Origin: a virus
Taxonomy: Duplodnaviria > Heunggongvirae > Uroviricota > Caudoviricetes
Virus record (IMG/VR): IMGVR_UViG_2617270940_000005
Location: 1 to 31,295 of that record
Strand: one strand, 5' to 3'
DNA: 31,295 bases
In this document: positions 9,958 through 16,001 of the stretch, one piece after another
Layout: each line of letters opens with the position of its first letter
Numbering within the stretch: position 1 is the first letter of the stretch
Notes under the pieces: model-generated
Told to the model about the DNA's origin: nothing
Seen by the model: the letters and a program-made list of their open reading frames with translations, nothing else
The model's database searches: none
Program-made: the position numbers and the translations under genes

Positions 9958-12900
9958 TTAGTTACGTGGAGTGTTTGGGTTGAGTGATCCGCCAGGGCGT
10001 TTCTCTTGAGCGATAGTCTCAAGCGCGATTGCTTTCATCCGTTGAGCGGCATTGTTCCATATGCTTTCTGTATCGCCGGATTCAGTTGTGCTACCGTCAC
10101 TATGGACGTTGATCTCAATTGATACCGGAGAAAGAACATTTCCTCCTCCACTCATACCATCGGTACTGAGCGTTACAGGGATTGTTCGACCATCAGGCAA
10201 TGGAACATACGCCTCATTCATAGAACCTTCCCCAAACAACGCTAATTGAGGCGAGTTAGCAATACCGCCTTTCTGGTATGCCCGGAGCGGGATCACGCCG
10301 TCTTTTCCGAATATTCCTCCATTTGCAAACTTCGGTATTGCAGGAATGCCTTTAGTTCCGTCAGCCACACAGCTGGTTGCGGTTTTAGCAGAGCTTGATG
10401 CCACGCTGTCGAAACCACCGCCAGCCCAAGCTGAAACAAGACCAGATGCAACCGTTGCTCCAAAACTCAACCACTTATTACCAGAGCCGGAAGCATTAGC
10501 TCCAAGCATTGCAAACGCGGCAGACAGCGCGCCGGTAACAGAGCTGAGGTTCTGCATCGAGAAGATGGAGTCCTTCACGGCTTTTGTCTCGGCATCTTTG
10601 GCTTCAGTGCTATCAAATAGCCCTGATACCCAGCTACCAATCGCATTTGTTGCAGTGCCAATTGCGCTGGTGGTCTGCTGTGTTGTTTGCCCCAATCCAG
10701 TTACCGAACTGGACGTCTCCTTCGTGGCTTCTCCTACCGACTTGTCGCCATTGACCGCATTCATCCGGACGCCTTGGTTGGCAACCGCTGACGCGACACC
10801 AGAAAGAAGATTGCCGCTCTGAGAGCTGCCCGCTGCCGTCGTTCCCATACCCAGCATGTTCATGAGAGGCAGAGTGATCTGCGTCTTCACAACCATGTTG
10901 GTGATGTCGCGGAGAATGGATTCTGCCAGACTGGAGAAGTCCATTTTCCCCTTCATAACGAAGTCGGTCAGCGTATCCGTCATGTTGCTGAACAGGTTGC
11001 TCCAGCTGTTTTCCAGCTGATCGGCCAGATTCTCGTACTCAAGCGCCAGCTTCTGTGTCGCCGTACCCGTCTCTTTGATGAGCGCGGTGTTGCCTGCCGC
11101 CACCAGCTGGTTAATCTGCTTAGTGTACAGCGCCACGATTTTCGGGTCTGAAGCCCGGTCACGCAGATCCATCAACGCTTTCAGGTTACGGTTGTAGGTG
11201 TCTTCGAAATCAGCAACCTTCTCTTCACGAGACGGCTTGTAACCCGCGCTAATGATGGAATCGGATTCCGGCGCCCAGGTGGAGATCATCTGCTCGACGT
11301 TGCGGCGGTTGAACATCTCGCGATATTCAGGTGTCGCATTTTTGAGGTCTTCAAGACGTTTTTTCGCCTTGTCGATCATCTCTTGAGTGATGAACTCGTT
11401 AGGAACCGCATTAGCCAAATCAGTTAGCGATTTTGTTGTATCGCGAAGAGACTGATCAAACGATACCGTAGCCTTAGAGCTTTCACCCATTTGCCCCATA
11501 AGCTGATCGGCTTTATCCAGAGCCTTCTGATATCCGGCCGCCAGTTTCTGTTGCGCTGCCTGTTCTTTCTTGGTCGCACGCTGAGAAGCATTGGCTGTAC
11601 GTCGCCCGGCTTTTTCCGCTGCTGCGGCATCCTGTTCGCGCGCTTTGGTCAGCGCGGCAATGGCTGCGGCGCGTTCCGCATCGCTCATTTTCTCCAGAGA
11701 GCTGGCACTGGATGCTTTCTGCAAATTAAGCTGCGTCTTGAGTTGTTTAGGCCCAATAATCGGCTTACCTTCGAAGTCCATCATCGGAGTGCCGTCAGGA
11801 AAAGTACGCTGATAAGTCGCAGAATCCATCTGGTTTCGCATATATTGCGCCAGAGCTTTCTGGGCCGCCTTGTCGCTCGTACCAAGCCCCAACACGGTTC
11901 CCTGGTTGGACATGACGTCCTTACCAGTTTTGGCGGCGTTATCACGCTCAAATTCGGCCTGAGTCAACTCCTGAGCGACAGCTTCCAGATGCACCTGATA
12001 GCCTAGAATACTGCCTTGTATCTTCTGAACCTGCTCGGTATTGCCCTCTTTCTTCGCCTTTTCGAGCAGATCGTTGTAGTGAGCAATCTGCTTCTCGGTC
12101 GCGTTTTTACGAGAGGACAGGGAATCAACCAGTTTTTGCGCAGGCTCCAGATAGCTTTTGTTTACCGTTTCACGTAACGGTGCCAATAGCTTGTTCTTTT
12201 CGTCATCTGAAAGTGAACCGTCATCATTGATTTTCTGGATCTTATCCAGAGCCTCCTGCCGGGCTTTCACGAATGTTGCCGCGAAAATCTGGTTTTCCGC
12301 TCGAATTTTCTCAATCTGAGATTCGGCAGCCTCTTTAGCCAAACGCTTTGCTACAGCGCCGTCACCAAGAGCTATCGTGCCGGTTATCTTTTGATACTCT
12401 TCCTGATTTTTTTTCAGGCGTGCTTCGATGTCAGCCTTCGACTCTTTGTGAGTAATAACACCGGCAGAGTTAGATACGTAATTAACACTCTCACCAGTTT
12501 TTAATGCTCGTTGATCAGCAAGAATCTGCTTTTCGAGCTTTTCTGCGCGGTCGGCCATTTGTGCACGTTTGGCCGCCGTCATCGCCTCTGGTATTTTCCT
12601 AATCTCGTCAACAACCTTTGAAGTTTCGCTTCGGAGCATGGTCATGTACGTGATTAGGCCAGCAACAGCTACAGTGGCAACTGTAAATGCTGCCCCTATA
12701 GGGTTTGCTGCAATGAACGCCGTTAATCCAGCAAAAGCGCCTTTAAGCCCCGTAATCGCCCCACGGATGGCGAAAATAAGAGAGGGGATCGGAGCCAGCC
12801 CCATACGTGCCGCACGATTGAATCGAGTTACTGCTGTAGCGCCGAGGTTAAATGGAGTCTGTATGGCGGTCGCCATCGTGGCAAAGGTGCTAACCATCTG

Positions 12901-14541
12901 GCTCCCAGCGCCAACTACCCCCATGATCCCTGCTCGCATCAGTTTGAACGCAACCATCGCGGCCACGACCTTACCAAGATTAATTACCAGCTCTTGGTTC
13001 TTTGCTAACCATTGAGCAAGCTGACGCAACCCATCGATTGCCGTCGTTAACCCCGAACCTAAAGAATTAGCAAACGAAATTCCTTCTGCGCTATTCATGA
13101 TGGAGGCTAGTTCTTTCATTCCCTTAGAGAGAGAATCCAGATAGCCCGTCTGACCGACACGATCGGCGAACAACGTAAAGGAGGTTTGTAGTTGCGCCAG
13201 CGCACCGGTGTAGGTTTGCATCATGTCTTTGGCGGCGTTTTCGTTCTCTGCACGCAGACCAACGAACATCAGCGATAACGCCTGTTTCGCTTCCACAGTA
13301 CCGCTGGAGACTGCTTTGGTCAGTTCCCCCATAGTAATGCCGGCAGCGTCTGCCATCGCTTTCATCGCGTTAGGAACGGCTTCACCTAATTGCTGACGCA
13401 GTTCTTCCATCGAAACAACGCCCTTACCGGACATCTGCTGGACGGCCACGGCTGCGCGTTTTAGCAGTTCACTATCGCCGCCGAAGCGTGCAACAGAGTC
13501 CACCAATGCTTTCAGCGATCCGTCAGTAGGATCGAGACCTGCCGAGCGAAATTTAACGAAGGAATCGGTCAGAGCCTGCATCGCAAACGGAGCATTTTGC
13601 GCCATATCCACGATGTACTGCATATCCTCTGCGGCTGCTTTGCCCGGGTTGGCCTTGTCCTTGTTCAGCCCGCGCAACATGACACGCATACGCTCCATTT
13701 CGGAGGCGGCTTCAATGATTGGCTTCTGCCAGCCGAACAGGATGTCTGTTACCGTTCTTGCCGCATCACCAATCTCACCAAGCAGGAAAATGTTGCCGCG
13801 CAGACCAGAGAAAACGCCGTCTTCAGCACCGCGCCCACCGTTGCCATAGGAACCGCCGTGTCGACTGCCACCGCCATTACCTCCGCTCTCACCGTAGCCG
13901 CTGGTGCGCACACGTACCGGCTTGCTGATCAGTTGCTGGCGGCCAATCACCGCATCCATCTGATCGCGGACTTTCTTCAGCCCCTCGGCAGCCTGGTTCG
14001 TTGTGACGCCCCAATTACTGAGACGCTTCGTCGTGGTGTTAAGGCGCGTATTCATACCACTCACGGATGTAGAGGCTTCTTTTACCTCCGTACCGAAGCG
14101 GCTGGCGCTCTTACCAGCGAACGTTGCCCAATCGGAAAACTCATTGAGTTCAGACTGAACCTTGCGCAACGATGTGGTGAGCTTATTAACGGAAGAGGTG
14201 GTTGTGTCGATGCGCTCAATCAGGGTTTTGAGACCTGAATTGAGGCTGGTAATGTTGCCTCGCGTCTTGCGCGAAACATCAGACACAAGTTCGAAGCCGG
14301 CAGCTACATCCTGTAGTTTGTCTGCCGTGGCATCGAGCTTGGACTCCAGAACGCCGATGATGCGGGAGACCGAACCCAACGAGCGTTCCAGATTGTTAAT
14401 TTTCTGAGCTGGTTTTGTGGCCTGCTCCCCGAATCTGGTAAGTAGCTTACCCGCCCGGTCGATTGACGCTGTAAACTGCTTGTCTTCCAGCGACAGGACA
14501 AACTCTACGTTTTGTGACATTCCCTTGTCATCCTCTGCCAA
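9958..14541 (-). CDS. Tail tape measure protein
   Basis: 1527 aa, largely helical with Ala/Gln/Lys-rich heptad-like sequence, a Gly-rich segment (GYGESGGNGGGSRHGGSYGNGGRG) and hydrophobic segments; located between the G/T chaperone pair and M as in lambda. Confidence 0.85.
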   Translation of the reverse strand: MAEDDKGMSQNVEFVLSLEDKQFTASIDRAGKLLTRFGEQATKPAQKINNLERSLGSVSRIIGVLESKLDATADKLQDVAAGFELVSDVSRKTRGNITSLNSGLKTLIERIDTTTSSVNKLTTSLRKVQSELNEFSDWATFAGKSASRFGTEVKEASTSVSGMNTRLNTTTKRLSNWGVTTNQAAEGLKKVRDQMDAVIGRQQLISKPVRVRTSGYGESGGNGGGSRHGGSYGNGGRGAEDGVFSGLRGNIFLLGEIGDAARTVTDILFGWQKPIIEAASEMERMRVMLRGLNKDKANPGKAAAEDMQYIVDMAQNAPFAMQALTDSFVKFRSAGLDPTDGSLKALVDSVARFGGDSELLKRAAVAVQQMSGKGVVSMEELRQQLGEAVPNAMKAMADAAGITMGELTKAVSSGTVEAKQALSLMFVGLRAENENAAKDMMQTYTGALAQLQTSFTLFADRVGQTGYLDSLSKGMKELASIMNSAEGISFANSLGSGLTTAIDGLRQLAQWLAKNQELVINLGKVVAAMVAFKLMRAGIMGVVGAGSQMVSTFATMATAIQTPFNLGATAVTRFNRAARMGLAPIPSLIFAIRGAITGLKGAFAGLTAFIAANPIGAAFTVATVAVAGLITYMTMLRSETSKVVDEIRKIPEAMTAAKRAQMADRAEKLEKQILADQRALKTGESVNYVSNSAGVITHKESKADIEARLKKNQEEYQKITGTIALGDGAVAKRLAKEAAESQIEKIRAENQIFAATFVKARQEALDKIQKINDDGSLSDDEKNKLLAPLRETVNKSYLEPAQKLVDSLSSRKNATEKQIAHYNDLLEKAKKEGNTEQVQKIQGSILGYQVHLEAVAQELTQAEFERDNAAKTGKDVMSNQGTVLGLGTSDKAAQKALAQYMRNQMDSATYQRTFPDGTPMMDFEGKPIIGPKQLKTQLNLQKASSASSLEKMSDAERAAAIAALTKAREQDAAAAEKAGRRTANASQRATKKEQAAQQKLAAGYQKALDKADQLMGQMGESSKATVSFDQSLRDTTKSLTDLANAVPNEFITQEMIDKAKKRLEDLKNATPEYREMFNRRNVEQMISTWAPESDSIISAGYKPSREEKVADFEDTYNRNLKALMDLRDRASDPKIVALYTKQINQLVAAGNTALIKETGTATQKLALEYENLADQLENSWSNLFSNMTDTLTDFVMKGKMDFSSLAESILRDITNMVVKTQITLPLMNMLGMGTTAAGSSQSGNLLSGVASAVANQGVRMNAVNGDKSVGEATKETSSSVTGLGQTTQQTTSAIGTATNAIGSWVSGLFDSTEAKDAETKAVKDSIFSMQNLSSVTGALSAAFAMLGANASGSGNKWLSFGATVASGLVSAWAGGGFDSVASSSAKTATSCVADGTKGIPAIPKFANGGIFGKDGVIPLRAYQKGGIANSPQLALFGEGSMNEAYVPLPDGRTIPVTLSTDGMSGGGNVLSPVSIEINVHSDGSTTESGDTESIWNNAAQRMKAIALETIAQEKRPGGSLNPNTPRN

Positions 14542-14890
14542 AAATTTGCATCAGTTGCTCTTTGGCGTCAGAGTCTGCCTTATCCTTGCGCGGATCGTAG
14601 ACTTTATCGGTTACGACTGGTCTTCCAATCCTGAGTTGCAAACCCTCCATGAACGCCTTCACGCCCTCGCCATCTGCCTGGGCAGCGCGAGCGACTTGCA
14701 GGTTGCGGACATCCTCTTCCGCACGTAGACGGTCGATGTTGCGACTGAGCATCCAGAACATCGTTAGAGGGACGCCCAGCAGCTCTAATGGCGACACGGC
14801 GTAGTGAGCAACTACACGACTGAAATAGAATCCGAGATCTATCGATACGGTCTTTACCCCGGATTCATCGCGGGAAATTACTTTGCCCCT
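14528..14890 (-). CDS. T-frame ORF of the tail assembly chaperone pair, probably made only as a G-T fusion by -1 frameshift
   Basis: This frame is open from 14890, is -1 relative to G, has no start codon or RBS near its 5' end (track start is an internal GTG at 14797) and overlaps the tape measure start. Candidate slip site is the last G codon, GCA_AAG_TAA at 14886-14878. Confidence 0.55.
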   Translation of the reverse strand, partial: RGKVISRDESGVKTVSIDLGFYFSRVVAHYAVSPLELLGVPLTMFWMLSRNIDRLRAEEDVRNLQVARAAQADGEGVKAFMEGLQLRIGRPVVTDKVYDPRKDKADSDAKEQLMQIFGRG

Positions 14891-15195
14891 TCACCAGCCG
14901 CTTTTTCGTTCTCTTCATCAATCACTTCCATAGCGAAGGTGAAGATTTGCTGAAGCTGCGGAACAGTCAGTTTTTCCAGTACAGTGTCCGGCACGGATGG
15001 GATGACCTTGCGAACCAGGTCGGCGTAAGCAGTAACCTGCTCTACAGGAGACATGTTCTGAAGATCTTTGCCTTCCATCTGCTTGATGGAGACGAACAGA
15101 CCAACTGTCATTTCAACGATGGGGTATTCCTGACCGCCGAACTTGATACTTTTCTTCGGAGGTAGAATGGAGTCGAGATCGAGTAATTTGGTCAT
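14878..15195 (-). CDS. Tail assembly chaperone, lambda gpG-like
   Basis: 105 aa, acidic C-terminus, directly after the major tail gene and before the T-frame ORF and tape measure; AAAAGGAT RBS. Confidence 0.65.
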   Translation of the reverse strand: MTKLLDLDSILPPKKSIKFGGQEYPIVEMTVGLFVSIKQMEGKDLQNMSPVEQVTAYADLVRKVIPSVPDTVLEKLTVPQLQQIFTFAMEVIDEENEKAAGEGAK

Positions 15196-15200
15196 TGGTT

Positions 15201-15237
15201 AAAATCCTTTTAAAAGAGAGGCTCTTCCTGAGCCTCT
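15201..15237 (-). terminator. Terminator-like hairpin after the major tail protein gene
   Basis: agaggctc-ttcct-gagcctct, 8-bp stem, followed on the minus strand by CUUUUAAAAGGAUUUU. Confidence 0.5.
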
Positions 15238-15254
15238 GCTTAGTCACGTCACGA

Positions 15255-16001
15255 TTATTCGGCAGAATTAACCGTTACAGCTTTGGTCGCTTTCTTGCCG
15301 CCGCTATTGCTGGTGAAGGAGATATTTGCCGAACCTTCAGCTACTCCGCGAACCAGACCAGTCTGATCAACGGTAGCCTTCTCCTGATTGTCGGACTCCC
15401 ACACACCGGTTTTGTCGCCGGCATCTGCAGGTGTGATCTGGGCTGCCAGCTGCACGCTCTCACCGGCTTTAACTTCCGGAGAATCCGGAGAGATAGAGAC
15501 GGATTTAACCGGCTTTGGGCCGCTCATTTTCCCCAGAATACCGTCGTCATCCGGGTAAGCGGTGAACTGAACCGAGAACACGCGAACATCATCAGACTGG
15601 TAGGTCATGGTGAAGTTACCTGCGGTCGCAGCTTTCGGGATGGTCAGAACGTAGTCGGTGGTATCCTGCGGGGTCAGAACCAGCTCTTTAGCTACGTCGA
15701 TCAGGTTGACGCCCTGTGCGGAAGTGATGGTCACAGAGTTATCTTCTTCACTCAGGGTAGAACCCGGCATCAGATCGACCATATTCTGCAACACAGACTC
15801 GGCCAGCGGCGCAGTGATAGTGATGTTACGGCCCTGTACCAGCTCGGAGATGGTGGTTTGCCCTAGCTGGTCTACGGTAACTTTCAGAGTTTCGGTCGCA
15901 ACCTCAACCTGAACACCGCCTTTGGTGTAACCCAGATCAACACCACCAAACGACACTTTGCAGGCGCCAAGTTTGATGTTTTTTACATGGGTATTGGACA
16001 T
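15255..16001 (-). CDS. Major tail protein with C-terminal Ig-like (Big_2-type) domain
   Basis: 248 aa with AAGGAG RBS, directly upstream of the chaperone pair; C-terminal ~90 aa (VKSVSISPDSPEVKAGESVQLAAQITPADAGDKTGVWESDNQEKATVDQTGLVRGVAEG) looks like a bacterial Ig-like domain, as in lambda gpV. Confidence 0.7.
   Translation of the reverse strand: MSNTHVKNIKLGACKVSFGGVDLGYTKGGVQVEVATETLKVTVDQLGQTTISELVQGRNITITAPLAESVLQNMVDLMPGSTLSEEDNSVTITSAQGVNLIDVAKELVLTPQDTTDYVLTIPKAATAGNFTMTYQSDDVRVFSVQFTAYPDDDGILGKMSGPKPVKSVSISPDSPEVKAGESVQLAAQITPADAGDKTGVWESDNQEKATVDQTGLVRGVAEGSANISFTSNSGGKKATKAVTVNSAE

What the first reader, a model, noticed from the sequence alone, without database searches (positions are those of the whole stretch)
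14878..14893. G/T chaperone -1 frameshift apparently placed at the last sense codon (A_AAG then TAA)
The T-frame ORF is open only from 14890 and is -1 relative to G, so frameshifting must occur within the last four G codons (GAA GGG GCA AAG TAA). The only position where tRNA re-pairing works is tRNA-Lys slipping from AAG to AAA at 14884-14882, with the stop codon in the A site. This is a minimal slippery site compared with lambda's G_GGA_AAG, and stop-codon pausing may drive it. The predicted fusion junction reads ...EGA-K-VISRDESG...
Basis: partly seen in the sequence, partly recalled or inferred. Interest (0 to 1): 0.5.

Follow-up and report, generated by a model that had tools for sequence, protein, structure and literature searches.

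The report
Tail chaperone frameshift at stop codon
In this SSU5-type phage-plasmid, the two small genes between the tail-tube and tape-measure genes are almost certainly joined by a -1 ribosomal slip on a minimal A_AAG site that sits directly against the stop codon, a known kind of phage trick in an unusually pared-down form that no database record annotates.

Summary
On the minus strand, a 105-codon G-like gene (15195..14878) ends GAA GGG GCA AAG TAA. The next ORF is in the -1 frame and is open only from 14890, so any shift must fall within the last four G codons.

Comparison with about 105 related loci in roughly 8 lineages (G down to about 50% identity) supports the interpretation:
- NNA_AAG plus a stop codon is invariant, as [GCA|GTA] AAG TA[A|G].
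- The synonymous third-position A is never replaced, although neighbouring four-fold sites vary freely.
- The 104 nt after the stop vary like T-frame coding sequence (positions 1/2/3: 16/5/29 variable columns) but hold no conserved start codon.
- Distant homologues in Pseudomonas, Rhizobium and Stenotrophomonas phages carry canonical heptamers at the same place.
- Some relatives have a second site, C_CCA_AAG plus a stop, joining the tail tube to its Ig domain.

The predicted product is a 222-aa G-T fusion, ...EGAK/VISRDESG....

Two points are unresolved. It could instead slip in the A site on a GCA_AAG hexanucleotide, as in IS1222 and cdd.

This is a new variant of a known mechanism, of modest interest.

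The parts
15255..16001 (-). Major tail (tube) protein with a C-terminal Big_2 Ig-like domain, the gene upstream of G.
   Evidence: Pfam Big_2 at 2.8e-26 on residues 164-242. PHROG 1280 and major tail protein PHROGs. Annotated as an Ig-domain or tail protein in SSU5 and Cyrano.
14878..15195 (-). G-like tail assembly chaperone ORF, 105 aa plus TAA.
   Evidence: ORF list and translation. PHROG 893 at 8e-49. It lies between the tube and tape-measure genes. The AlphaFold model (pLDDT 72) finds phage tail assembly chaperones as its best BFVD matches (E 8e-4, TM 0.64). Homologous to the G genes of Nickievirus ZY21 (E 1e-8) and Stenotrophomonas phage ANB28 (E 9e-6).
14891..14893 (-). TGA in the -1 (T) frame. 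It sets the 5' limit of the region where a shift can occur in this window.
   Evidence: Translation of the -1 frame. It arises from the GGT Gly codon and is absent in the GGC variants.
14881..14886 (-). Shift site GCA_AAG. The A_AAG tetranucleotide is 14884-14881, and tRNA-Lys re-pairs from AAG (14883-14881) to AAA (14884-14882).
   Evidence: Invariant as [GCA|GTA]_AAG in about 105 loci and about 8 lineages. The third-position A of the penultimate codon is synonymous yet never varies, whereas the Ala, Ala/Ser and Gly codons just upstream take 3-4 different third bases. The terminal Lys is invariant.
14878..14880 (-). G stop codon TAA, immediately 3' of the shift codon.
   Evidence: It is always adjacent to AAG in relatives, as TAA or TAG. 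The same layout, C_CCA_AAG followed by TAA, TAG or TGA, occurs at the tube/Ig junction of relatives.
14528..14881 (-). T-frame segment: 117 codons from GTA at 14881, plus the TGA stop. It is translated only as the C-terminal part of the 222-aa G-T fusion.
   Evidence: PHROG 1131 at 4.9e-40. Variable columns by codon position in the first 104 nt are 16/35, 5/35 and 29/34 for positions 1, 2 and 3. There is no conserved start: the GTG at 14797 is GTC or ATT in other lineages, and ATT at 14878-14876 is GTT, GAA or GTA elsewhere. Annotators begin it at different internal codons, giving products of 74-89 aa.
14828..14866 (-). Conserved hairpin core. GAAUCCGG(GGU) pairs with (AUC)UCGGAUUC, giving 8 invariably paired bp plus 3 more. 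It starts 14 nt 3' of AAG.
   Evidence: Predicted fold -14.6 kcal/mol. RNAalifold recovers it. The 8-bp helix is 100% paired in 14 sequences, with compensatory U-A to G-C in Photorhabdus. Only 3-11% of synonymous recodings keep 8/8 pairs, 36% for Photorhabdus.
14815..14872 (-). Possible lower helix, CGCGAU (14872-14867) pairing with GUCGUG (14820-14815). It encloses the core hairpin and would bring the structure to 8 nt from AAG.
   Evidence: Present in the minimum-free-energy fold of the window. It is 88% paired across 14 sequences, shows no covariation, and is broken in the L092/L094/L097 lineage. Weakly supported.
9958..14520 (-). Tape measure protein gene, downstream of T. The ATG is at 14520.
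   Evidence: ORF list, sequence, annotation in SSU5 and Cyrano, and TMP_3 / Tape_meas_lam_C domains in relatives.

Best explanation
This is the G/GT tail-assembly-chaperone recoding site of an SSU5-type phage-plasmid.

Most ribosomes translating G terminate at UAA (14880-14878) and make the 105-aa chaperone. A small fraction slip one base backwards on A_AAG. The single enterobacterial tRNA-Lys (anticodon mnm5s2UUU) leaves AAG and re-pairs with AAA (14884-14882). Decoding then continues with GUA AUU UCC..., producing a 222-aa G-T fusion, ...AAGEGAK-VISRDESGVKTVSIDLGFYFSR....

By analogy with lambda gpGT, the G part of the fusion would hold the tape-measure protein and the T part would recruit the tube protein.

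The slippery element is reduced to an NNA_AAG hexanucleotide in place of the usual X_XXY_YYZ heptamer. Because such a site is barely shifty on its own, I infer that stimulation comes from two flanking features that are conserved with it. These are the abutting stop codon and a hairpin that begins 8 nt (lower helix) or 14 nt (core) downstream.

Shown here:
- the frame layout;
- conservation of the motif, the stop and the hairpin;
- the coding signature of the start-less T region;
- canonical heptamers in distant homologues.

Inferred:
- that shifting actually occurs, and at what level;
- which ribosomal site the Lys-tRNA occupies when it slips;
- that the stop and the hairpin stimulate the shift.
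For: Layout:
- The gene order tube, G, T (-1 frame), tape measure is seen.
- The shift window is bounded by TGA 14893-14891 and TAA 14880-14878.

Conservation of the site:
- [GCA|GTA] AAG TA[A|G] is invariant in about 105 loci, with G identity down to about 50%.
- The synonymous A before AAG is fixed, while adjacent four-fold sites vary.
- In-frame A_AAG is rare, at 0.32% of codons.

Evidence that T is translated without its own start:
- The 104 nt after the stop vary at codon positions 1/2/3 in 16/5/29 columns in the T frame.
- The T N-terminus KV[IVE][ST]R[DE]E..SID[LF]GFYFSR is conserved.
- No start codon is conserved.

Distant homologues keep T in the -1 frame and carry canonical heptamers near the G 3' end: C_CCA_AAG (ZY21, nickie), G_GGA_AAC (RHph_Y2_11), G_GGA_AAG (B1VFA) and A_AAA_AAA (ANB28).

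A second 'AAG + stop' site, C_CCA_AAG-TAA/TAG/TGA, joins the tube to its Ig domain in relatives.

G's predicted fold best matches tail assembly chaperones.

Literature:
- A_AAG is the most shift-prone tetramer in E. coli.
- NNA_AAG sites are used by IS1222 and occur in cdd, and shift better when the 5' codon's tRNA wobbles freely.
- From my own knowledge, GCA and GUA are both read by cmo5U34 tRNAs.

The hairpin is supported.
Against: - There is no direct evidence for the fusion protein, and no record annotates slippage, PGAP included.
- A_AAG without a stimulator was at background in reporter assays (0.15% against 0.11%), so the site depends on stimulators that are only inferred here.
- The hairpin core lies 14 nt from the shift codon, outside the usual 5-9 nt spacing.
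- The lower helix that would correct this spacing is not kept in one lineage and shows no covariation.
- Hairpin conservation is partly forced by the conserved ES-G and GF peptides.
- MFE z-scores against synonymous recoding are modest, from -0.2 to -2.25.
- UAA-U is, from my own knowledge, a strong termination context, which is not what a 'slow stop' model would predict.
- G and T have no Pfam or NCBIfam hit, and no solved structure matches the G model.
Confidence: 0.85

Rival explanations
1. P-site 'shifty stop' version. Peptidyl-tRNA-Lys slips from AAG to AAA while UAA occupies an empty A site. The G:GT ratio is then set by competition between release factor and Val-tRNA reading the -1 frame GUA.
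For: - The stop abuts AAG in every lineage, switching between TAA and TAG while the T-frame residue changes among I, V and E.
- The tube/Ig site of relatives has the same adjacency with all three stop codons.
- P-site re-pairing of tRNA-Ala or tRNA-Val is impossible (GGC, AGC, AGU, CGU) and is not conserved, so a tandem shift gains nothing from the P site.
- With AAG in the P site, the lower helix would start at +12, at the mRNA entrance (own reckoning).
- Stops adjacent to shift sites are known stimulators.
Against: - The product is identical to that of an A-site shift, so sequence data cannot separate the two.
- The tube/Ig site has a full heptamer, which implies tandem A/P slippage with the stop merely downstream.
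- In Nickievirus homologues the stop is one codon further on.
- Adjacency could simply reflect the conserved T-frame K-V dipeptide (AAA GUA), which contains UA.
- UAAU is an efficient terminator (own knowledge).
Confidence: 0.4
2. A-site hexanucleotide version. Lys-tRNA slips on GCA_AAG while tRNA-Ala (cmo5UGC) sits in the P site and releases the third-position A, as at IS1222 G_CGA_AAG and B. subtilis cdd A_CGA_AAG. The downstream hairpin stimulates the shift, and the stop codon is incidental.
For: - NNA_AAG sites are documented, and their efficiency rises with the wobble capacity of the tRNA reading the 5' codon.
- Only GCA and GUA are seen here, and CCA at the tube/Ig site and in Nickievirus. 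All are read by cmo5U34 tRNAs (own knowledge).
- A conserved structure begins 8 nt after AAG if the lower helix forms.
- Distant relatives have hairpins 5-8 nt after their heptamers.
Against: - The lower helix is weak and is lost in one lineage, which leaves a 14-nt spacer.
- This version does not explain why the stop is never displaced in any lineage.
Confidence: 0.4
3. T is made on its own, without a frameshift. It would start at an internal codon (GTG 14797 or ATG 14749-14747, as annotators assume) or at a non-canonical AUU/AUA close to the G stop, possibly by termination-reinitiation.
For: - All database records annotate a separate 74-89-aa protein.
- In the window, AAGGGG lies 7 nt upstream of ATT 14878-14876, a spacing like that of a ribosome-binding site.
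- The L079 and L103/L105 lineages have an ATG 9-12 codons into the T frame.
Against: - The about 31 codons upstream of the annotated starts evolve as coding sequence and are highly conserved as protein.
- GTG 14797 is GTC or ATT in other lineages, and the Met of MFW is Thr elsewhere.
- ATT after the stop is GTT, GAA or GTA in others, and the AAGGGG is GAAGAAG or GAAGACG.
- Homologues in other hosts have canonical slippery heptamers at this place.
Confidence: 0.08
4. In some relatives the shift occurs further upstream, on the A-run GAA_AAA_GCG (A_AAA). A_AAG-stop would then be only one of two usable sites.
For: - In the GGC variants the -1 frame is open back to TGATGA and includes GAAAAAG.
- A metagenome protein, P0003, reads ...EENEKSGWRRGKVISRDES in exactly that frame.
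Against: - In this window, in SSU5 and in most divergent lineages a TGA blocks that route.
- The A-run is absent where the sequence is GAA GCC GCN.
- P0003 is more simply explained as an assembly indel.
Confidence: 0.05

Closest known systems
Lambda gpG/gpGT and the conserved tail-assembly-chaperone -1 frameshift of long-tailed phages (Levin et al. 1993; Xu et al. 2004, as cited in the review read).
   Same: - The gene order is tube, G, T, tape measure.
- T is in the -1 frame, has no start of its own, and overlaps the G 3' end.
- The expected products are abundant G and rare G-T fusion.
- The second codon of the site is AAG, as in lambda G_GGA_AAG.
   Different: - There is no X_XXY_YYZ heptamer, so the P-site codon cannot re-pair.
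- The overlap is only 4 codons.
- The shift codon is the last sense codon, directly followed by the stop.
- G and T have no detectable sequence similarity to Pfam or NCBIfam chaperone families.
NNA_AAG hexanucleotide / A_AAG tetranucleotide -1 sites: IS1222 G_CGA_AAG, B. subtilis cdd A_CGA_AAG, IS3 C_CAA_AAG.
   Same: - tRNA-Lys re-pairs alone from AAG to AAA.
- The 5' codon ends in A and is read by a tRNA with broad wobble.
- The intrinsic efficiency is low, so a stimulator is needed.
   Different: - Those sites use pseudoknots or SD-like elements at standard spacing, and their stop is not adjacent.
- Here the stop abuts the site and the best-conserved structure is 14 nt away.
- The biological context is phage tail assembly, not transposase or an incidental product.
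'Shifty stop' recoding (Weiss et al. 1987; prfB CUU_UGA +1; antizyme), as cited.
   Same: A stop codon lies immediately 3' of the codon on which the peptidyl-tRNA can re-pair.
   Different: - The classic cases shift +1 and use a poorly recognised stop.
- Here the direction is -1, and the stop is UAA-U or UAG.
Ig-like domains appended to phage structural proteins by frameshifting (own knowledge: Fraser et al. 2006).
   Same: Relatives L092, L094, L095, L097 and L103/L104 have the tube gene ending C_CCA_AAG-stop with the Big_2 domain in the -1 frame. This is the same 'AAG + stop' design as the G/T site.
   Different: In this window the tube and the Ig domain form one continuous ORF. That site has a full heptamer.

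Membership tests
Tail assembly chaperone G/GT programmed -1 frameshift | Two small ORFs located between the major tail (tube) gene and the tape measure gene. | tested here: met
   Tube+Big_2 is 16001-15255, G is 15195-14878, T frame is 14890-14528 and TMP is 14520-9958. The order is the same in SSU5, Cyrano and other relatives.
Tail assembly chaperone G/GT programmed -1 frameshift | The second ORF is in the -1 frame, overlaps the 3' end of the first, and lacks a conserved initiation codon but is under protein-level selection. | tested here: met
   Codon-position variability is 16/5/29 columns. No start codon is conserved.
Tail assembly chaperone G/GT programmed -1 frameshift | A canonical slippery heptamer X_XXY_YYZ in the overlap. 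| tested here: not met
   Only A_AAG is present, within G_GCA_AAG, or A_GCA / A_GUA / C_GUA in relatives. Canonical heptamers do occur in distant homologues.
Tail assembly chaperone G/GT programmed -1 frameshift | The G protein is related to known tail assembly chaperones. | tested here: inconclusive
   No Pfam or NCBIfam hit and no PDB match. The predicted fold (pLDDT 72) has tail assembly chaperones as its best BFVD hits, at E 8e-4, probability 1.0 and TM 0.64.
Tail assembly chaperone G/GT programmed -1 frameshift | G and G-T fusion proteins are produced at a ratio of roughly 30:1, and the fusion is required for tail assembly. | not testable with these tools
   Needs proteomics or genetics.
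NNA_AAG hexanucleotide / A_AAG tetranucleotide -1 frameshift sites | A_AAG with AAG in the zero frame, allowing cognate re-pairing of tRNA-Lys on AAA. | tested here: met
   Positions 14884-14881, invariant in all relatives.
NNA_AAG hexanucleotide / A_AAG tetranucleotide -1 frameshift sites | The 5' codon is read by a tRNA with extended wobble. | not testable with these tools
   Only GCA and GUA are observed. That both are read by cmo5U34 tRNAs is my own knowledge. The rule itself comes from the review read.
NNA_AAG hexanucleotide / A_AAG tetranucleotide -1 frameshift sites | A stimulatory RNA structure about 5-9 nt downstream, or an SD-like element 10-14 nt upstream. | tested here: inconclusive
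   The conserved hairpin core is 14 nt downstream. The lower helix, 8 nt downstream, is only 88% paired and is lost in one lineage. The upstream AAGGGG is too close and is not conserved.
Shifty-stop (stop-stimulated peptidyl-tRNA slippage) | A stop codon immediately 3' of the slip codon. | tested here: met
   TAA 14880-14878. TAA or TAG is adjacent in all lineages.
Shifty-stop (stop-stimulated peptidyl-tRNA slippage) | Shift efficiency depends on the stop codon and on release-factor activity. | not testable with these tools
   Needs reporter assays with stop-to-sense mutants and RF titration.

The most novel reading that the evidence does not exclude
The SSU5 group may have settled on a stop-dependent -1 'shifty stop' as a reusable module. 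Peptidyl-tRNA-Lys would slip on A_AAG while a release factor competes for the adjacent stop, so that the G:GT ratio (and, in relatives, the tube:tube-Ig ratio) is set by termination kinetics, not by a classical heptamer with a closely spaced structure. The conserved hairpin 11 nt beyond the stop would act on the terminating ribosome and not on an elongating one.
Probability: 0.3. Interest if true: 0.55.

Novelty: new variant of a known kind. Interest (0 to 1): 0.38.

Why it matters
1. Annotation. The G-T fusion is missing from every record I examined: SSU5 RefSeq, Cyrano, PhiR41_1, the Klebsiella phages, and PGAP annotation on the SSU5-like plasmids found in 232 of 5,426 complete E. coli genomes. 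T is instead given arbitrary internal starts. The same omission affects the Nickievirus, Rhizobium and Stenotrophomonas phage homologues, which have textbook heptamers.

2. Prediction tools. Frameshift predictors that require a heptamer-like motif would miss this site. It is a natural, deeply conserved example showing that a bare NNA_AAG next to a stop can serve an essential phage function in Enterobacterales, whose only tRNA-Lys pairs weakly with AAG.

3. Mechanism. The group offers a natural series for testing what the stop codon and the oddly spaced hairpin contribute to -1 shifting: heptamer + stop at tube/Ig, hexamer + stop at G/T, and heptamer + hairpin in distant homologues.

Tried and rejected
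Searches that gave nothing useful:
- Pfam and NCBIfam on G, T and the fusion gave no usable hit.
- Foldseek of the G model against the PDB gave nothing significant.
- Rfam on 14400-15300 gave only a sub-threshold hit on the inter-genic hairpin.
- No tRNA genes were found in the window.
- Literature searches for SSU5 with frameshift or tail assembly chaperone found no description of this site.
- The primary paper on hexanucleotide motifs (Licznar et al. 2003) could not be read. I rely on its summary in the review read.
- The genome-contig scan added few new lineages.

Ideas considered and rejected:
- The upstream SD-like AAGGGG as a stimulator. It lies 1-2 nt from the site, a spacing expected to favour +1, and it becomes GAAGAAG or GAAGACG in relatives.
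- The small CCCG/CGGG hairpin I first saw 5-6 nt downstream. It is not conserved, for example in Photorhabdus and L092.
- AUU 14878-14876 as a start codon. It is not conserved.
- Slippage on GGG (A_GGG). That codon is GAG, GAA or GAC elsewhere.
- Transcriptional slippage. The longest homopolymer runs here are A3 and G4.
- A +1 shift. That frame closes after 9 codons.
- Sequencing error. The same frames are seen in more than 100 independent assemblies.
Full report
**What is in the sequence.** The genes in this part of the window run on the minus strand.
- A 248-aa tail tube protein with a C-terminal Big_2 Ig-like domain occupies 16001-15255 (Pfam 2.8e-26).
- It is followed by a 105-codon ORF at 15195-14878, PHROG 893.
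- A second ORF lies in the -1 frame, PHROG 1131.
- The tape measure gene then starts at ATG 14520.
- The first ORF ends GAA GGG GCA AAG TAA, with AAG at 14883-14881 and TAA at 14880-14878.
- The -1 frame carries TGA at 14893-14891 and is then open to 14528.
- The +1 frame closes after nine codons.

The window is 99.8% identical to E. coli plasmids and 96.7% identical to Salmonella phage SSU5, so it is an SSU5-type phage-plasmid.

**Is it more than chance?** In-frame A_AAG occurs at 25 of 7,935 codons in the window's long genes. That is about 1.3% for any four-codon stretch, and G is the only one of 23 ORFs that ends A_AAG-stop.

I collected about 105 related loci from IMG/VR, GTDB genomes, GenBank phages and metagenome assemblies. 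They fall into roughly eight lineages, with G identity down to about 50%. Every one has [GCA or GTA] AAG followed at once by TAA or TAG, and the terminal Lys is invariant.

The third base of the penultimate codon is synonymous in G and is not read in the T frame if the shift happens here. It is nevertheless A in all lineages. The Ala, Ala/Ser and Gly codons just upstream take three or four different third bases. That points to selection on the tetranucleotide A_AAG itself.

**Is the downstream frame really translated from the junction?**
- In a 20-sequence alignment of the 104 nt after the G stop, variable columns fall 16/35, 5/35 and 29/34 on T-frame codon positions 1, 2 and 3.
- The encoded peptide KV[I/V/E][S/T]R[D/E]E..SID[L/F]GFYFSRV is conserved.
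- No start codon is conserved. GTG 14797 is GTC or ATT elsewhere. The Met used by the SSU5 annotation is Thr in other lineages. The ATT after the stop is GTT, GAA or GTA elsewhere.
- Annotators and gene callers therefore begin 'T' at different internal codons, giving products of 74-89 aa.
- No record, PGAP included, annotates slippage.

**Family-level evidence.** tblastn with the fusion found distant T homologues in Pseudomonas Nickieviruses, Rhizobium phages and Stenotrophomonas phages. Their G proteins are also homologous to this one (E 1e-8 and 9e-6). In all of them T is in the -1 frame, and a canonical heptamer sits, in frame, near the G 3' end:
- C_CCA_AAG in ZY21 and nickie, one codon before the stop;
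- G_GGA_AAC in RHph_Y2_11;
- G_GGA_AAG in B1VFA;
- A_AAA_AAA in ANB28.

Several of these have hairpins 5-8 nt downstream. The SSU5 group is thus a derived state in which only the A-site half of the heptamer survives.

G has no Pfam or NCBIfam hit. Its AlphaFold model (pLDDT 72) finds tail assembly chaperones as its best matches among viral models (E 8e-4, TM 0.64). Nothing in the PDB matches.

**A second site of the same design.** In the Raoultella-type and Klebsiella K4-41-type relatives, the tube gene ends ...GCC/AGC CCA AAG followed by TAA, TAG or TGA. The Big_2 domain follows in the -1 frame. This is a full heptamer, C_CCA_AAG, again abutted by the stop. So 'AAG + stop' recurs in this phage group.

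In the window, the tube and the Ig domain form one ORF. The heptamer C_CCA_AAG is still present in frame at 15519-15513. It is CCT_AAA in other in-frame relatives, so it is probably not functional here.

**How it most likely works.** According to the literature I could read:
- A_AAG is the most shift-prone tetramer in E. coli. On its own it is hardly above background (0.15% against 0.11%), and it reaches 5.6% with the IS3 pseudoknot.
- E. coli has a single tRNA-Lys, whose pairing with AAG is weak.
- NNA_AAG sites are used by IS1222 and occur in B. subtilis cdd. Their efficiency rises when the tRNA for the 5' codon wobbles freely.
- From my own knowledge, GCA, GUA and CCA are all read by cmo5U34 tRNAs.

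Two mechanisms give the same protein.
- The second is an A-site slip on the hexanucleotide, with tRNA-Ala or tRNA-Val in the P site.

The invariable adjacency of the stop favours the first. The documented precedents, the heptamer at the tube/Ig site and the restriction to GCA/GUA favour the second. I cannot separate them from sequence, and I give each about 0.4.

GAAUCCGG(GGU)...(AUC)UCGGAUUC at 14866-14828 folds at -14.6 kcal/mol. RNAalifold recovers it.
- The 8-bp core is paired in 100% of 14 representative sequences. Changes are wobble-compatible, and one is a clear compensatory change (U-A to G-C in Photorhabdus). Slid controls reach at most 71% of cells paired for the hairpin alone and 54% for the full two-helix structure.
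- Only 3-11% of synonymous recodings of the same peptides keep all eight pairs, 36% for Photorhabdus.
- Native folds are consistently, though modestly, more stable than recoded ones, with z from -0.2 to -2.25.
- The core starts 14 nt after AAG, further than the usual 5-9 nt.
- A lower helix (14872-14867 pairing with 14820-14815) would bring the structure to 8 nt. It is only 88% paired, shows no covariation, and is lost in one lineage.

I regard the hairpin as a candidate stimulator with atypical spacing. It is not a demonstrated one.

**Rivals.**
- Independent initiation of T is unlikely (about 0.08), for the reasons given above.
- Shifting on the upstream A-run GAAAAAG is possible only in the GGC variants. 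There the TGA is absent, and one metagenome protein (P0003) reads in that frame, most simply as an assembly indel. The TGA blocks that route in this window and in SSU5.
- SD-like stimulation, slippage on GGG, a +1 shift, transcriptional slippage and sequencing error were all considered and rejected (see 'tried and rejected').

**Verdict.** It is a tail-assembly-chaperone G/GT frameshift, a known kind of system. Its site is unusual for such systems: a bare NNA_AAG against the stop codon, deeply conserved, unannotated everywhere, and mirrored at a second site in relatives. Each ingredient has precedent, so a specialist would be interested but not astonished. I score interest at 0.38 and rate it a 'new variant of a known kind'.

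Noticed in passing
L092:1640-1760, L094:1640-1760, L095, L097, L103/L104 (tube/Ig junction); window 15519-15505: In several relatives the tail tube gene ends C_CCA_AAG followed immediately by TAA, TAG or TGA, and the Big_2 Ig-like domain follows in the -1 frame. This is a probable second programmed -1 frameshift, and it is not annotated. In the window the two parts are fused in frame, yet C_CCA_AAG is still present in frame at 15519-15513. A -1 slip there would hit TAA at 15507-15505 and give an Ig-less tube protein. Other in-frame relatives have CCT_AAA at this position, so the window's heptamer is probably a relic.
   Followed up: partly
L098 (ZY21) 1510-1522; L102 (nickie) 1495-1507; L099 (RHph_Y2_11) 1474-1480; L100 (B1VFA) 1471-1477; L101 (ANB28) 1483-1489: Distant homologues in Pseudomonas, Rhizobium and Stenotrophomonas phages have textbook slippery heptamers and a -1 T frame. 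In all five records G and T are annotated as two separate hypothetical proteins.
   Followed up: partly
window 14893-14895 versus L002/L003/L004 at the same position: A synonymous GGT/GGC polymorphism in G's Gly101 creates or removes the TGA that closes the T frame upstream. In the GGC variants the -1 frame is open back to TGATGA and includes the run GAAAAAG.
   Followed up: partly
P0003 (ENA metagenome protein, 139 aa): A G homologue whose C-terminus reads ...EENEKSGWRRGKVISRDESGTRTVSIDL. This is the -1 frame entered at the A5 run, and the tail of the protein diverges after that. It is most likely a 1-nt assembly indel and not a natural fusion.
   Followed up: no
window 15237-15211 (minus strand): There is a terminator-like hairpin between the tube gene and G: AGAGGCUC-AGGAA-GAGCCUCU followed by CUUUUA. 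The simple terminator scan did not flag it, and Rfam gave only a sub-threshold HIV-1_SL3 match there. It could lower G/T/TMP expression relative to the tube protein.
   Followed up: no
L097:2330-2345: One lineage has a 3-nt (GAA/GAG) insertion in the spacer between the G stop and the hairpin. The T frame reads REEESG and the spacer is 17 nt, so the spacing is not strictly fixed.
   Followed up: no
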